A stretch of 64,000 nt of DNA, from NCBI RefSeq assembly GCF_030013205.1, contig NZ_CP122648.1, one strand, 5' to 3'. The first letter of the stretch is position 1; each line of letters starts with the position of its first letter. Positions 31,101 to 37,100 of this stretch are shown here, one piece after another. Origin of the DNA: Escherichia coli. Lineage in GTDB: Bacteria > Pseudomonadota > Gammaproteobacteria > Enterobacterales > Enterobacteriaceae. The position numbers are program-made.

Positions 31101-34100
31101 ACGCATCCAGTTCAGCGTACAGCCCACTTCAAAAGCACGGGAAATGGCAATTGACTTGCCTTGCTCCAGGGTTTCCAGTTGCGCCAGCTCCTCACTGTGC
31201 TGCTCCACCAGATCAGCAAAACGTAGCAGAATACGTTCACGCTCTGCGGGTAATCGCCCGGCCCAGCGACGCGAGACAAAGGCCCGCCAGGCAGACATGA
31301 CTGCGTTATCTACATCCGCTTCGTTGGCATCAGCAGTAGACGCAATTTCTTGCCCGGTGGCCGGATCAAAGATCGCCAACCGTTTTTCACTTTGTGCGGG
31401 GCCAGGACGACCATCAATATAAAGACCGTGTTGACGATCGAGAAACTGTTGGACCTGGCTTAATACTGCTACATGCGGCTCTGTCATCACTTTTCCTTAT
31501 CATTTACCCAGTGTGATTTCAGTGTACGCAGCGACAAGAAAAGTCACTTTTTTCGCTGTGACATTCGCTTTGTCAGCTGTGACAAGCTCCGCAAATCGTG
31601 ACAATAACCGCTTATGTCTCTATGCCTGACAAGACTTATTTCCTATAGTCAGGCTCATTAGCTTCGATTATCGCAACACAAATGCAACAATAAAAATACA
31701 TTTCACAGAGCGAAAACGTGCCATGAACCCCGCAGTGGATAATGAGTTTCAGCAATGGCTTTCCCAAATCAATCAGGTATGCGGAAATTTTACCGGGCGC
31801 CTGCTGACTGAGCGTTACACGGGTGTACTGGATACGCATTTTGCCAAAGGACTAAAGCTGAGTACCGTGACAACCAACGGGGTGAATTTATCCCGCACCT
31901 GGCAGGAAGTAAAAGGCAGCGACGATGCCTGGTTTTACACCGTTTTTCAGCTTAGTGGTCAGGCAATAATGGAGCAGGATGAGCGTCAGGTGCAGATTGG
32001 CGCTGGCGATATTACGTTACTCGATGCCTCACGCCCCTGTTCGCTTTACTGGCAGGAGTCTTCTAAACAGATTTCATTACTTTTACCACGCACTCTGCTG
32101 GAACAATATTTTCCCCATCAAAAACCTGTCTGCGCAGAAAGACTGGACGCTGACTTACCCATGGTGCAACTCAGTCATCGCCTGTTACAGGAGAGCATGA
32201 ATAATCCGGCACTTTCTGAAACAGAAAGTGAAGCTGCGCTACAGGCGATGGTGTGTCTGCTTCGCCCAGTACTTCATCAGCGGGAATCTGTCCAACCTCG
32301 CCGTGAACGTCAGTTTCAAAAAGTGGTTACGTTGATAGACGATAATATTCGCGAAGAGATATTACGCCCGGAGTGGATAGCCGGAGAGACAGGTATGTCA
32401 GTACGTAGTTTGTACCGAATGTTTGCCGATAAAGGTTTGGTGGTCGCGCAATATATTCGTAACCGTCGTCTCGATTTTTGTGCTGATGCGATTCGCCATG
32501 CCGCAGATGATGAAAAACTGGCAGGTATTGGCTTTCATTGGGGATTTTCCGATCAGAGTCATTTTTCAACGGTATTTAAGCAACGCTTTGGGATGACGCC
32601 AGGCGAGTATCGACGTAAATTCCGCTAACTAATTCGCGTTGCATGTACAGCAACGCGAATTAGTTAAAACAGATATTTGACTATGCATTTTTCAGGGCGA
32701 AAGGCAATTTGACAGGAATTTTTGAATATTCACCTTGTTTCCGGAAAATAGAATAATCGCCTTCTCCTGTAGCGTTATCCCGATATTGCGGTTTTGCTAT
32801 TAAAATTTTCGCACCCATTTACCGTTTATCCCTTGTACATATTCCCCCGGTTTAGCCCGAGCTACGAGCTTTTGCCCGGCGAGTTTCGCGATATCATCTA
32901 CCGAGACATTATTTTGCTTTGCCAATTGTTGGTAACTCGCTTTACGTTCGGCATTAATGTCGTTTACTAATTTCTCTGTTTCAGCATCTGTTTTCAGCGC
33001 AACCAGATAACCATAAAATGTTTCCCCTACCCGCCCCTGAGTTCTGGCTTCATCCAGAGTCAATGCCATTACATTGCTGCTTACAAGCCCAACAAGAAAT
33101 GCACAAAGAAGTAATGTTTTCTTCATCATCGCCTCAGAAAAGATCGCTACGAGTCTCAAGCAGCTCTTCGACATCTTTGTCTGCCTTGATGATGATCTCA
33201 TGCTCAATTTTAACGTTCATATTGATAGTGATCGGTTCCTTAGGTGCAGCGACTTCAATGCGAGGCGTACAGCCAACCAGCATAAAAGATGACGTCAACG
33301 CAGCCAGTAAAATTTTCATTGTTTTTCCTCACACTCTTTTCCTTGCGGACAGTCATTTCCCGGCAGACGTGCGTTCTGCTCCAACCATGCCTGGAGATTA
33401 TCGCCAAAGCGTAAACTGCGCCACAGCGTAAAAATATTCTCTTCATGATGGTAATTAAGGTTTACCGTACCGCTTTTACCATCAACGCGACTGGTACCTG
33501 TAATGTTGGCCTGCATGGTTAATAAACCGAGATTATCTAAATTAATATTTGTCGATGAACGGCTAATTTCCATATAGCGCAACCAGTTAATTGCTGAACC
33601 CGCGGTCATATTGTCTTTCACTACCGCATCTGCGGTGTCTTTATCCAGTCGCAAGGTCATTGGTCCACTATTTGCCAGCCAGCCGTCTTTCACTATCCAT
33701 TTTTCATTGTTTAGCCATAACGGCAATGCACCACTAAATGCCCCGGACATGGCGAATTGTTTCGGATTGACGGCGCTAACCAGTTCGCTGGATGAGAGAT
33801 TATTCAGCCGCAACAGCGCCGGGTCATGTTGCGGCATACGTAATTGTTTCATCAGCACGTTACCGCCTAACACATCGACGCTAACATCAGTCAACAGCAA
33901 TGGTTCTTCTTCTGTCCACGGATAGCGCCCTTGCAAATCAGCCGTAATATTTTTCGCTGTCACCAGATTAATCACTTCGGCAATTCGCAACGTAACGGGG
34001 CCGCGAGTCCCCAGATGCCAGGCTCCATCGGCAAAACGGAAAGGCAGGACAAAATCGACACCGTTAACCTGATTATCTGGCATCCAGGCACTACCGCCTT

Positions 34101-37100
34101 TCAACACGCCGTGCCCTCCCGCGCGGAATCCTTGTTCAGGCGCAGCAGAAAATGCAACCTGAGCATACAGTTCACCATCGCGTAAGTTCATCTTCCAATC
34201 GGGTGGCACCAGCGGCTGGAATACAGTCAGTGATTGTTTAGGCCACCAGGCGTTACCGCGCAGACGAATACCGTCCCAGCGACCATTTACCCGAACCGGG
34301 CCAATCTCACCAGCATGTAAATCGCCTTTAAAGAGGAAATACGTCGGATCGCGTCCATCGACGCTAAATTTTAAGGTTGATGGCGGTAACACACTGCCGC
34401 CAGTGAACAGCGTTTGCCCGGCGTCCAGTGACAGCGCGCCGCTAAAGGAGGGATGCTGTACGTCACGTACCCAGACGACGGGCTTATCGAGAATTAGTCG
34501 CGGCTTTTCTACCGTCATCGTACCGTATTGTAACTGGTCGAAACCGGTGGAGAGATCGGTCAGCGTAATCGTGCTGTCATGCCACTCACCCTTTCCTGCG
34601 ACATCCCAGGTGGCATTCATCGGTGTAAAACTGCCTTTTCCCCAGTAGCGCCACTGCCAGCGGCCAGCGTCAGGGAGAAAATCATTCGCCAGTCCATCCA
34701 TATGCAGCACGAAATCGCCCAGTTCATTTTCATGCGCCTGCAAAATGGCCTGCAAACGTCCGTCAACACCACGTTGGGTGACTTTTACACCCGCTAAAGG
34801 CCAGCGGATTTCATCGATGTCCAGCGAATCGATGACTCTTCCCTTCGAACGTAATAACGCGCCTGGCTCAAAGGCCAGCGTTGGGTCAGTCAGACTTCCG
34901 CTTAGCTGCGCAGGTAAACGGGCATATAAAATGAGGTCCGCCTGTTTCGCTTCACCGGTCAGCTGCAAAGGCAGCTGGCTGTTATCCATACTTAATTTTC
35001 CAGGGCCAAAATTAAGCACCGCGTTGCCCTTACCCGCTTGCCCCTGGGTCAGCACACTCAGTCGTCCGCTGACCAGAGCGTTCTCAAGCCCTGCCTGCCA
35101 GTTGTCGACTTTAACACCCAGTCGGCCACTCAAAGGAAAACCTGCATACGGCCAGCTCCAGCGACCATCGCTTACGGTCAATTGTTGGCGAGTAATTTGC
35201 CACGGCAGATCGAGCAACGGATCGCCGTTATCCCGTGCCACCACAATCAATTGCCCGCTATTTTCCTGCCAGTCTAGCTCGGCATCCACCAGTGAAGGCT
35301 CCTGCGGCAAGTTTAACGTCGCAGTAGCATGACCACTTACAGGAAGTCCATCCGGCACTAGCGGCATAGTAAATTCCCCCACCAGTTTAACCGGCGGCTG
35401 ATTTTCAAACGCGACGATATCCAGTTCGCTGACTGTAAGTTGTTGCCCTTTCAGCTGGCCTTGAAATTTAACTTTTTCGCCCTGATAACGCAGTTGCTGG
35501 ATATCAGAGGTTAACGCGAGAGAGAGTTTTCCCTGCCACTCCTGCCAGGGAGAAAAAATCAGTTTATCGATATTGATCCAGGTGTTAGGCAACATGGCCT
35601 GCCACTGCGCGAGGGTTTTTGGAGCGGCAGGCGATTGCTCCGTCTGCGGCAATTTCGCCAGACAAGCAGAATCAAGTTCTACCGTGCCGACGTTCAATAA
35701 CCAGCGGCTCGGATGTGAAAGGCTGGCGTTGGTGATATGCGCAAGCTGACAATCTCCCACCAGATAACGGAGATCGGGAATGATTAAACCTTTACGCGTA
35801 ATACGTGGGCTTTCATCTAATGCAATACGTGTCCCGAGCGGTAGCCAGATGCCCGCCAGCGTGGGAACCCACAAGCCGAGCGTCATCAGCAGCGTCAACG
35901 GCACAAGAATAATCAGTAATAACAGCGCGAGAACGGCTTTATATTTACCCAGCATGGGTAGTTAATATCCTGATTTAGCGAAAAATTAAGCATTCAATAC
36001 GGGTATTGTGGCATGTTTAACCGTTCAGTTGAAGGTTGCGCCTATACTAAGCATAGTTGTTGATGAATTTTTCAATATCGCCATAGCTTTCAATTATATT
36101 TGAAATTTTGTAAAATATTTTTAGTAGCTTAAATGTGATTCAACATCACTGGAGAAAGTCTTATGAAACTCGCCGTTTATAGCACAAAACAGTACGACAA
36201 GAAGTACCTGCAACAGGTGAACGAGTCCTTTGGCTTTGAGCTGGAATTTTTTGACTTTCTGCTGACGGAAAAAACCGCTAAAACTGCCAATGGCTGCGAA
36301 GCGGTATGTATTTTCGTAAACGATGACGGCAGCCGCCCGGTGCTGGAAGAGCTGAAAAAGCACGGCGTTAAATATATCGCCCTGCGCTGTGCCGGTTTCA
36401 ATAACGTCGACCTTGACGCGGCAAAAGAACTGGGGCTGAAAGTAGTCCGTGTTCCAGCCTATGATCCAGAAGCCGTTGCTGAACACGCCATCGGTATGAT
36501 GATGACGCTGAACCGCCGTATTCATCGCGCGTATCAGCGTACTCGTGACGCCAACTTCTCTCTGGAAGGTCTGACCGGCTTTACTATGTATGGCAAAACG
36601 GCAGGCGTTATCGGTACCGGTAAAATCGGTGTGGCGATGCTGCGCATTCTGAAAGGTTTTGGTATGCGTCTGCTGGCGTTCGATCCGTATCCAAGTGCGG
36701 CGGCACTGGAACTCGGTGTGGAGTATGTCGATCTGCCAACCCTGTTCTCTGAATCAGACGTTATCTCTCTGCACTGCCCGCTGACACCGGAAAACTACCA
36801 TCTGTTGAACGAAGCCGCCTTCGATCAGATGAAAAATGGCGTGATGATCGTCAATACCAGTCGCGGTGCATTGATTGATTCTCAGGCGGCAATTGAAGCG
36901 CTGAAAAATCAGAAAATTGGTTCGTTGGGTATGGACGTGTATGAGAACGAACGCGATCTGTTCTTTGAAGACAAATCCAACGACGTGATCCAGGATGACG
37001 TATTCCGTCGTCTGTCTGCCTGCCACAACGTGCTGTTTACCGGGCACCAGGCATTCCTGACAGCAGAAGCACTGACCAGTATTTCTCAGACTACGCTGCA

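What the first reader, a model, noticed from the sequence alone, without database searches (positions are those of the whole stretch)
32800..35955. ydbH-ynbE-ydbL operon intact with overlapping reading frames
Seen in sequence: the ydbH stop overlaps the ynbE start by 4 nt, and ydbL starts 8 bp after ynbE, indicating tight translational coupling of an 879-aa AsmA-like membrane protein with a 61-aa lipoprotein and a small periplasmic protein. From literature as I recall it, AsmA-like proteins (YhdP, TamB, YdbH) are implicated in phospholipid transport between the inner and outer membranes, with YnbE as an outer-membrane partner. Flagged because this window also carries lesions in other envelope loci (ompN, micC promoter, ynbD, efflux pump), so the intact state here is informative.
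Basis: partly seen in the sequence, partly recalled or inferred. Interest (0 to 1): 0.25.

Follow-up and report, generated by a model that had tools for sequence, protein, structure and literature searches.

The report
Intact, ordinary ydbH-ynbE-ydbL operon
This is the normal, intact E. coli ydbH-ynbE-ydbL operon, which builds one of three redundant lipid-transport bridges between the inner and outer membranes; its gene overlap and function are already published, so the finding is correct but ordinary.

Summary
On the minus strand, ydbH (35955..33316, 879 aa) ends in an ATGA that also starts ynbE (33319..33134, 61 aa). ydbL (33126..32800, 108 aa) follows after a 7-nt spacer, and its Shine-Dalgarno GAGG overlaps the ynbE stop codon. 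The layout is base-for-base that of E. coli K-12. The proteins are 871/879, 61/61 and 107/108 identical to K-12, with dN/dS of about 0.05. Every residue known to matter is wild type.

The window is E. coli, 99.99% identical to porcine strain K_EC180. The operon covers at least 80% of the query in 5409 of 5426 complete E. coli genomes. In K_EC180 the redundant paralogues yhdP and tamB are also annotated as intact, so "intact here" says very little.

Function and mechanism are published:
- YdbH/TamB/YhdP redundancy (Ruiz 2021).
- The YdbH-YnbE bridge by beta-strand augmentation, with YdbL as a chaperone-like modulator (Kumar 2024; De'Ath 2026).
- Strict termination-reinitiation coupling at the ydbH/ynbE ATGA (Huber 2019), measured on a fragment 128/129 identical to this one.

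Coupling of ydbL remains untested.

Verdict: already known, low interest.

The parts
33316..35955 (-). ydbH coding sequence (879 aa): inner-membrane-anchored AsmA-like / repeating beta-groove protein
   Evidence: ORF. Pfam PF11739 E 1.2e-290, covering residues 14-862. NCBIfam NF007971 equivalog, 1398 bits against a cutoff of 824. 871/879 identical to K-12 YdbH. dN/dS 0.046.
35875..35943 (-). Codons for the YdbH N-terminal transmembrane anchor (about residues 5-27)
   Evidence: The only Kyte-Doolittle 19-residue windows above 1.6 lie at the N-terminus, with a maximum of 2.95 at residues 8-26. The single-sequence AF2 model has a helix at 5-25 with pLDDT 72-81.
33316..33319 (-). ATGA: ydbH stop (TGA) overlapping ynbE start (ATG); the termination-reinitiation site
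   Evidence: Sequence. Identical in K-12. Coupling shown experimentally in PMC6728339 and PMC10666635.
33326..33330 (-). Shine-Dalgarno GAGGA for ynbE, inside the 3' end of ydbH, 6 nt upstream of the ATG
   Evidence: Minus-strand sequence GTGAGGAAAAACAATGA. The SD was reported as strictly essential for reinitiation at this gene pair.
33134..33319 (-). ynbE coding sequence (61 aa): outer-membrane lipoprotein partner of YdbH
   Evidence: ORF. Pfam PF13617 E 3e-16. 61/61 identical to K-12.
33269..33280 (-). Codons for the YnbE lipobox L14-V-G-C17 (the lipidated Cys; the +2 residue is Thr)
   Evidence: Regex match.
33132..33135 (-). Shine-Dalgarno GAGG for ydbL, overlapping the ynbE TGA stop (TGAGGCGATGATG)
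   Evidence: Sequence. It lies 5 nt from the annotated ATG at 33126 and only 2 nt from the alternative ATG at 33129. K-12 differs by one base in the spacer, GGTG versus GGCG.
32800..33126 (-). ydbL coding sequence (108 aa; signal peptide 1-21): periplasmic chaperone-like modulator of YnbE
   Evidence: Pfam PF07027 E 2e-31. 107/108 identical to K-12, with A55N. Residues 22-108 match PDB chain 28oj_A 'Probable chaperone-like protein YdbL', E 6e-52. All 16 functionally tested residues are wild type.
36067..36093 (-). Candidate sigma-70 promoter of the operon, TTGAAA-15-AAAAAT, in the ldhA/ydbH divergent spacer
   Evidence: Exact pattern found once. It is listed as the ydbH--ydbL constitutive promoter in PMC3946193. 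The generic consensus scan did not report it, so this is a prediction only.
32626..32666 (.). Perfect 17-bp hairpin between the convergent ydbL and feaR genes, starting at the feaR stop codon; a likely transcript-end structure for both
   Evidence: Inverted repeat found. MFE -30.9 kcal/mol on the minus strand (z -8.0) and -25.9 on the plus strand (z -6.3). A compensatory C:G to G:C swap relative to K-12 keeps the stem. Neither strand has a U-tract.

Best explanation
The region is the canonical, fully intact E. coli ydbH-ynbE-ydbL operon, transcribed on the minus strand from the ldhA/ydbH spacer.

YdbH is anchored in the inner membrane by one N-terminal helix. Its long beta-groove domain reaches across the periplasm. 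The lipoprotein YnbE is anchored in the outer membrane through Cys17. [quoted passage not shown] Periplasmic YdbL binds the C-terminal helix of YnbE and restrains runaway YnbE multimerisation. The bridge is one of three redundant ones, with TamB-TamA and YhdP.

Ribosomes that terminate ydbH at the ATGA reinitiate on ynbE with the help of the GAGGA motif. ydbL follows 7 nt later, with its SD overlapping the ynbE stop.

What is shown here: gene integrity, identity to K-12, purifying selection and the junction anatomy. What comes from the literature: bridge formation, YdbL function and ydbH-to-ynbE coupling. What is inferred: coupling of ydbL, and that the junctions serve to fix the YdbH:YnbE:YdbL ratio.
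For: - Anatomy: ORFs and junctions match K-12 exactly.
- Family matches are far above curated cut-offs.
- Proteins are 871/879, 61/61 and 107/108 identical to K-12.
- dN/dS is 0.046, 0 and 0.07 at dS of about 0.1.
- Sequence features: a single N-terminal TM segment, the lipobox LVGC and a Sec signal ending NVMA|LTLDE. The mature YdbL matches solved structure 28oj.
- Residues known to matter are unchanged: YdbH W791 and W857, which cross-link to YnbE; YdbH T303, G305, G308 and G456, the gain-of-function sites; and 16 tested YdbL residues.
- Mechanism from PMC11126948, 10.64898/2026.03.16.712125 and PMC8593681.
- Coupling from PMC6728339 and PMC10666635, measured on a -99..+30 fragment that is 128/129 identical to the window.
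- The operon covers at least 80% of the query in 5409 of 5426 complete E. coli genomes.
Against: Nothing in the sequence contradicts this reading, but several points are open.

- Direct biochemical evidence of lipid transport by YdbH-YnbE is still lacking, according to PMC11126948.
- The beta-groove fold could not be verified here: the single-sequence AF2 model has a mean pLDDT of 31.6.
- The local RNA structure proposed to block de novo initiation at ynbE is no more stable than shuffled controls in my fold (z +1.23).
- The eight YdbH substitutions (V180I, A196T, L239V, S356T, T361A, I493V, A499V, K803N) and YdbL A55N are untested, though most are conservative.
- Expression in this strain is not known.
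Confidence: 0.95

Rival explanations
1. ydbL is not translationally coupled to ynbE. It is initiated de novo from its own Shine-Dalgarno, so only the ydbH/ynbE pair is coupled and the 7-nt spacer is merely compact operon packing.
For: A good GAGG lies 5 nt upstream of the annotated ydbL ATG. No significant structure masks this start: the fold of 33095-33165 gives z +0.29. Reinitiation efficiency falls with distance, in a way that varies between gene pairs, even at +2 nt. Genetic data show the YdbL level has to be tuned separately from YdbH/YnbE, since excess YdbL is lethal in a tamB yhdP mutant.
Against: Very short spacers still supported most reinitiation in two of three tested E. coli pairs. 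Because the SD overlaps the stop codon, a terminating ribosome sits on the initiation region. No experiment has addressed this junction in either direction.
Confidence: 0.35
2. The operon is intact only because it has not yet had time to decay. In this lineage it is dispensable, being redundant with TamB and YhdP, and is not under selection.
For: Single ydbH, ynbE or ydbL deletions have no detectable phenotype in K-12. yhdP, tamA and tamB are annotated as intact in the nearest genome. Several neighbouring genes in the window are broken.
Against: dN/dS is 0.046 over 66 differences in ydbH, and there are no non-synonymous changes in ynbE. The operon is retained in at least 99.7% of complete E. 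coli genomes. The junction and SD sequences are conserved.
Confidence: 0.03
3. YdbH-YnbE is an intermembrane tether or assembly factor that maintains outer-membrane lipid homeostasis indirectly, rather than a conduit through which phospholipids travel.
For: [quoted passage not shown] The paralogue TamB also has a described role in outer-membrane protein assembly (abstracts).
Against: The groove is predicted to be continuously hydrophobic, and YnbE extends it with non-polar residues. AsmA-like proteins are homologous to eukaryotic bridge-like lipid-transfer proteins. Loss of all three paralogues is lethal with lipid-homeostasis defects. None of this can be tested from sequence.
Confidence: 0.1

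Closest known systems
E. coli K-12 ydbH-ynbE-ydbL operon (b1381-b1383)
   Same: Same gene order, gene lengths, ATGA overlap, 7-nt spacer, SD motifs, flanking genes (ldhA, feaR) and predicted promoter hexamers. Proteins are 99.1%, 100% and 99.1% identical.
   Different: 77 substitutions across the three coding sequences, 66 of them synonymous. There are 8 amino-acid changes in YdbH and 1 in YdbL (A55N), none at a residue with a known role. One base differs in the ynbE-ydbL spacer. The downstream hairpin has a compensatory swap.
TamA-TamB translocation and assembly module
   Same: An inner-membrane-anchored AsmA-like beta-groove protein works with an outer-membrane partner encoded in the same operon. 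It is functionally redundant with YdbH-YnbE (PMC8593681). In K_EC180 the tamA/tamB genes also overlap by 4 nt.
   Different: The partner is a beta-barrel protein (TamA) rather than a 61-aa lipoprotein, and it is encoded upstream rather than downstream. TamB is longer (1259 aa). There is no YdbL-like component. No significant sequence match was seen here: only a sub-threshold DUF748 hit, E 0.065.
Termination-reinitiation coupled gene pairs (Huber et al. 2019; hyfHI, astDB, menDH)
   Same: An ATGA overlap with an SD inside the upstream gene. ydbH/ynbE is itself one of the tested pairs and showed strong coupling with an essential SD.
   Different: Nothing differs for ydbH/ynbE. The ynbE/ydbL junction is a +7 spacer rather than an overlap and has not been tested.
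CsgC / CsgA (curli chaperone and amyloid subunit)
   Same: An analogy drawn by Kumar 2024: a small periplasmic protein prevents runaway beta-strand polymerisation of a partner.
   Different: There is no sequence or fold relationship. YdbL is mostly helical and binds the C-terminal helix of YnbE.

Membership tests
YdbH family (Pfam PF11739 / NCBIfam NF007971 equivalog) | Full-length profile match above the curated cut-off | tested here: met
   PF11739 scores 967.9 bits against 26.3, covering profile positions 1-892 of 893. NF007971 scores 1398.5 bits against 824.
YdbH family (Pfam PF11739 / NCBIfam NF007971 equivalog) | Single N-terminal transmembrane anchor, with the rest of the protein periplasmic | tested here: met
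   Hydropathy windows above 1.6 occur only at residues 1-40. The AF2 model has a helix at 5-25 with pLDDT 72-81.
AsmA-like / repeating beta-groove (RBG) lipid-transfer proteins | Elongated beta-groove fold with a hydrophobic interior | tested here: inconclusive
   The single-sequence AF2 model has a mean pLDDT of 31.6, so no fold search was run. There is no supra-threshold Pfam AsmA-type hit; DUF748 scores E 0.065. The fold is asserted in the literature for the 99%-identical K-12 protein.
AsmA-like / repeating beta-groove (RBG) lipid-transfer proteins | Synthetic lethality with tamB and yhdP deletions, showing functional redundancy | not testable with these tools
   Shown for K-12 in PMC8593681. 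It requires genetics in this strain.
YdbH-YnbE bridge | YdbH C-terminal residues that cross-link to YnbE (W791, W857) are present | tested here: met
   Both are conserved in the alignment.
YnbE-like lipoprotein (Pfam PF13617) | Profile match, lipobox with the lipidated Cys, and no Asp at +2 (outer-membrane sorting) | tested here: met
   PF13617 scores 59.3 bits against 25.8. The lipobox is LVGC at residues 14-17 and the +2 residue is Thr.
YnbE-like lipoprotein (Pfam PF13617) | Amphipathic beta-strand I30-I38 and C-terminal helix K45-T56 | tested here: met
   The sequences ITINMNVKI and KADKDVEELLET are identical to K-12. Their roles are described.
YdbL / DUF1318 (Pfam PF07027) | Profile match, cleavable Sec signal, and a mature domain equal to the solved YdbL structure | tested here: met
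   PF07027 scores 108.7 bits against 27. The signal peptide ends NVMA|L22. Residues 22-108 match 28oj_A at E 6e-52.
YdbL / DUF1318 (Pfam PF07027) | Residues required for function or YnbE binding: L24, R28, E35, Y40, N58, R61, Y65, L68, N72, I79, K86, L87, R90, W104, K107 | tested here: met
   All are present. The only difference from K-12 is A55N, a position that has not been tested.
Termination-reinitiation coupled gene pair | Overlapping stop and start (ATGA) with an SD inside the upstream gene | tested here: met
   ATGA at 33319..33316 and GAGGA at 33330..33326.
Termination-reinitiation coupled gene pair | Downstream translation depends on upstream translation reaching the overlap | not testable with these tools
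   Shown with reporters for the K-12 fragment. The window's fragment is 128/129 identical.
Termination-reinitiation coupled gene pair | Local RNA structure masking the downstream initiation region (proposed, not strictly defining) | tested here: inconclusive
   The -99..+30 fragment folds at -27.4 kcal/mol against a shuffle mean of -31.8 (z +1.23). The start is partly paired in the MFE structure, but the fold is not unusually stable.
Intrinsic (Rho-independent) terminator, for the hairpin at 32626-32666 | A GC-containing stem-loop followed by a U-tract | tested here: not met
   The stem is present and strong, but no run of T follows on either strand and the scan did not report it. It works like a transcript-end hairpin but is not a canonical intrinsic terminator.

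The most novel reading that the evidence does not exclude
The junction architecture itself may be the device that sets the subunit ratio of the bridge. Strict termination-reinitiation at the ATGA would cap YnbE synthesis at or below YdbH synthesis. That argues for a functional bridge with one or very few YnbE copies rather than a long YnbE stack. The stop-overlapping SD and 7-nt spacer would then tie YdbL output to YnbE output, keeping YdbL below the level that is toxic when the cell depends on this bridge. If so, small changes at these junctions would be a natural tuning point for outer-membrane lipid homeostasis. Nothing in the window suggests that this strain departs from K-12 in this respect.
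Probability: 0.3. Interest if true: 0.3.

Novelty: already known. Interest (0 to 1): 0.06.

Why it matters
The operon matters biologically. It encodes one of three redundant systems that supply the Gram-negative outer membrane with phospholipid, and these systems are potential antibiotic targets. This window adds nothing new to that picture: the genes, their overlap, the coupling and the protein functions are all published for an almost identical K-12 sequence. The useful result here is negative. The operon can be annotated with confidence, and its intact state should not be read as a signal of special selection in this strain. The only open thread is whether the ynbE-ydbL junction is also translationally coupled, and whether coupling sets the YdbH:YnbE:YdbL ratio that genetics shows to be critical.

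Tried and rejected
1. A single-sequence AlphaFold2 model of YdbH was made to test the beta-groove fold. Mean pLDDT was 31.6 and only the transmembrane helix was confident. No fold search was run because the matches would be meaningless. I ran no further search on building an alignment, because the protein is 99% identical to a published, modelled protein.
2. I folded the -99..+30 ynbE initiation region to reproduce the proposed masking structure. It is no more stable than shuffled sequences. The ydbL start region is likewise unremarkable.
3. The generic sigma-70 and terminator scan of 32500-36300 gave counts equal to the shuffle expectation and nothing in the ydbH upstream spacer. The promoter listed in the report comes from a published prediction whose pattern I located.
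4. Rfam searches at the gathering threshold over the whole window and at E<=1 over 32500-36300 found no RNA family inside the operon or its flanks.
5. A Pfam scan at E<=10 for AsmA-type domains in YdbH gave only a sub-threshold DUF748 hit.
6. I considered whether the natural substitutions hit known gain-of-function or interface residues. None do.
7. I considered whether ydbH might be uniquely needed in this lineage because yhdP or tamB is broken. This is rejected: both are annotated as full length in K_EC180.
8. Base composition across 30-39 kb is ordinary for E. coli, with no sign of foreign DNA.

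
Full report
**1. Observation**

The six-frame ORF list and the raw sequence show three co-directional ORFs on the minus strand:
- ydbH, 35955..33316 (ATG start, 879 aa)
- ynbE, 33319..33134 (61 aa)
- ydbL, 33126..32800 (108 aa)

The minus-strand sequence at the first junction reads GTGAGGAAAAACAATGAAAATT. The TGA stop of ydbH and the ATG of ynbE share ATGA (33319..33316), a 4-nt overlap. A GAGGA Shine-Dalgarno motif lies 6 nt upstream of that ATG.

The second junction reads TTTTCTGAGGCGATGATGAAG. 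The ynbE stop ends at 33134 and the annotated ydbL ATG starts at 33126, leaving a 7-nt spacer. The GAGG for ydbL overlaps the ynbE stop codon. It is 5 nt from the annotated ATG and only 2 nt from an alternative ATG at 33129, which favours the annotated start.

None of the three genes is interrupted.

**2. What the sequence is**

The 3.46-kb region is 100% identical to a group of porcine E. coli strains, including ETEC isolates and K_EC180. The whole window is 99.99% identical to K_EC180 over the first 56 kb (window 1-56162) compared. The differences are one SNP and three homopolymer indels.

The flanking genes are those of K-12, with ldhA divergent upstream and feaR convergent downstream. K-12 has the same gene lengths and junction offsets.

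Family and identity evidence:
- Pfam gives YdbH-like (PF11739, E 1e-290, full length), YnbE-like lipoprotein (PF13617) and DUF1318 (PF07027).
- NCBIfam gives the YdbH equivalog.
- Against K-12, YdbH is 871/879 identical (V180I, A196T, L239V, S356T, T361A, I493V, A499V, K803N), YnbE is 61/61, and YdbL is 107/108 (A55N).

Nei-Gojobori counts against K-12:

| Gene | Differences | dS | dN | dN/dS |
|---|---|---|---|---|
| ydbH | 66 | 0.098 | 0.0045 | 0.046 |
| ynbE | 1 (synonymous) | 0.025 | 0 | 0 |
| ydbL | 10 | 0.115 | 0.008 | 0.07 |

This is strong purifying selection.

Sequence features fit the expected topology:
- YdbH has a single N-terminal hydrophobic segment.
- YnbE has the lipobox LVGC, with Cys17 and Thr at +2.
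- YdbL has a Sec signal ending NVMA|LTLDE.
- The mature part of YdbL (residues 22-108) matches the solved structure 28oj, "Probable chaperone-like protein YdbL".
- No solved structure exists for YdbH or YnbE.

**3. How it works**

The mechanism is published for the K-12 proteins.
- Ruiz and co-workers showed that tamB, yhdP and ydbH deletions are synthetically lethal and that any one of the three suffices for growth (PMC8593681).
- Kumar et al. showed that YdbH is inner-membrane anchored and binds the outer-membrane lipoprotein YnbE through beta-strand augmentation.
  - The YnbE strand is I30-I38.
  - YdbH W791 and W857 cross-link to YnbE.
  - YnbE multimerises, and YdbL restrains that multimerisation in a chaperone-like way.
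  - The YdbL:YdbH/YnbE ratio is critical (PMC11126948).
- De'Ath et al. solved YdbL, mapped its binding to the YnbE C-terminal helix, and identified the residues needed for function (10.64898/2026.03.16.712125).

All of these residues are wild type in the window. So are the four YdbH gain-of-function positions, T303, G305, G308 and G456.

It has been measured. Huber et al. used ydbH/ynbE as one of five native E. coli pairs. They found strong coupling by termination-reinitiation with a strictly essential SD, and a follow-up paper showed that the effect depends on distance (PMC6728339 and PMC10666635). The -99..+30 fragment they used is 128/129 identical to the window.

Coupling of ydbL to ynbE has not been tested. 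It is plausible from the 7-nt spacer and the stop-overlapping SD. De novo initiation is a real alternative, and I rate it at about 0.35.

**4. Regulatory ends**

The published constitutive-promoter prediction for ydbH--ydbL, TTGAAA-15-AAAAAT (PMC3946193), is present at 36093..36067 on the minus strand. The generic scan did not detect it.

Downstream, a perfect 17-bp hairpin (32626-32642 / 32650-32666) begins at the feaR stop codon.
- It is far more stable than shuffled controls on both strands: -30.9 kcal/mol with z -8.0, and -25.9 kcal/mol with z -6.3.
- It carries a compensatory C:G to G:C exchange relative to K-12.
- It lacks a U-tract, so it is not a canonical intrinsic terminator.

No Rfam family matches anywhere in 32500-36300.

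**5. Is "intact here" informative?**

- An IS1 (41885-42652) with a 9-bp target duplication (CGCGGGTTA) separates micC from its promoter.
- ompN has a premature stop, giving 352 aa against 377.
- ynbD is split by a frameshift.
- A DHA2-family MFS permease is split by a frameshift. Its HlyD-family partner is intact in the window, unlike in K_EC180.

However, the ydbH operon covers at least 80% of the query in 5409 of 5426 complete E. coli genomes. In an evenly spaced sample of 60 genomes, 59 list all three genes. In K_EC180 the redundant paralogues yhdP (3801 nt), tamA and tamB (3780 nt) are annotated as full length.

Intactness is therefore the species-wide default and carries little information about this strain.

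**6. Tests that failed or were inconclusive**

- The single-sequence AlphaFold2 model of YdbH was too poor (pLDDT 31.6) to test the beta-groove fold.
- The local RNA structure proposed to mask the ynbE start is not unusually stable in my fold (z +1.23).
- No supra-threshold AsmA-type Pfam domain is detected in YdbH besides the YdbH-like family itself.

**7. Verdict**

The feature is the well-characterised ydbH-ynbE-ydbL operon in its ordinary state.

Novelty is "already known" and interest is about 0.06.

The most novel reading not excluded is that the two junctions are the mechanism fixing the YdbH:YnbE:YdbL ratio, which would constrain how many YnbE copies sit in the bridge. I put its probability at about 0.3. 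It would be of modest interest and is not specific to this window.

Noticed in passing
window 41876-42661 (IS1 at 41885-42652; micC at about 41767-41879, minus strand): A 768-bp IS1 with a 9-bp target-site duplication CGCGGGTTA (42661..42653 and 41884..41876, minus strand) is inserted at micC positions -5..+4. The full-length MicC sRNA gene (Rfam RF00121, 107.8 bits) now sits 5 nt from the IS1 end, cut off from its native -10/-35 and from the divergent ompN promoter region. The middle part of micC also diverges from K-12, while the 5' seed is conserved.
   Followed up: yes
window 42885-44018: The ompN ORF ends prematurely at 43943, giving 352 aa against 377 aa in K-12. PGAP marks it 'internal stop' in the near-identical K_EC180 genome.
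   Followed up: partly
window 5735-7125 (minus strand): ynbD is split into two overlapping ORFs, 6130-7125 (331 aa) and 5735-6187 (150 aa), which indicates a frameshift. It is the last gene of ynbABCD, a putative phospholipid-biosynthesis operon. ynbA-C are annotated as intact in the near-identical K_EC180.
   Followed up: partly
window 50933-53474 (minus strand): A DHA2-family MFS efflux permease is split by a frameshift into 51592-52446 (284 aa) and 50933-51643 (236 aa). The adjacent HlyD-family gene, 52443-53474 (343 aa), is intact in the window. K_EC180 lacks one base in a T7 run (53262) and one in a C6 run (51989), so some 'frameshifts' in that assembly may be homopolymer sequencing errors. 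This gene cluster appears not to be present at this site in K-12 (from memory; not checked here).
   Followed up: partly
window 32626-32666: A perfect 17-bp hairpin between the convergent ydbL and feaR genes starts at the feaR stop codon. MFE is -30.9 kcal/mol (z -8). It has a compensatory C:G to G:C change relative to K-12 and no U-tract on either strand.
   Followed up: yes
L006 12666-12669 (K_EC180 tamA/tamB): The tamA and tamB genes also overlap by 4 nt. A second AsmA-like transporter is thus encoded with a stop/start overlap to its outer-membrane partner, but with the partner upstream.
   Followed up: no
window 469: A homopolymer A-run in ydcF has one more base in the window than in K_EC180, where ydcF is annotated as frameshifted. 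The window copy may be intact.
   Followed up: no
window 47471-47588 (minus strand) and 54454-54549 (plus strand): Full-length FnrS (RF01796, 134.8 bits) and McaS/IsrA (RF00115, 112.8 bits) sRNA genes were found by the Rfam scan.
   Followed up: no
E. coli genome search: Five of the 5419 matches to the operon lie on records labelled as plasmids. One genome (SCPM-O-B-7615) keeps only the 5' quarter of ydbH (23% of the query), and 9 genomes have no match at all. These rare losses were not examined.
   Followed up: no
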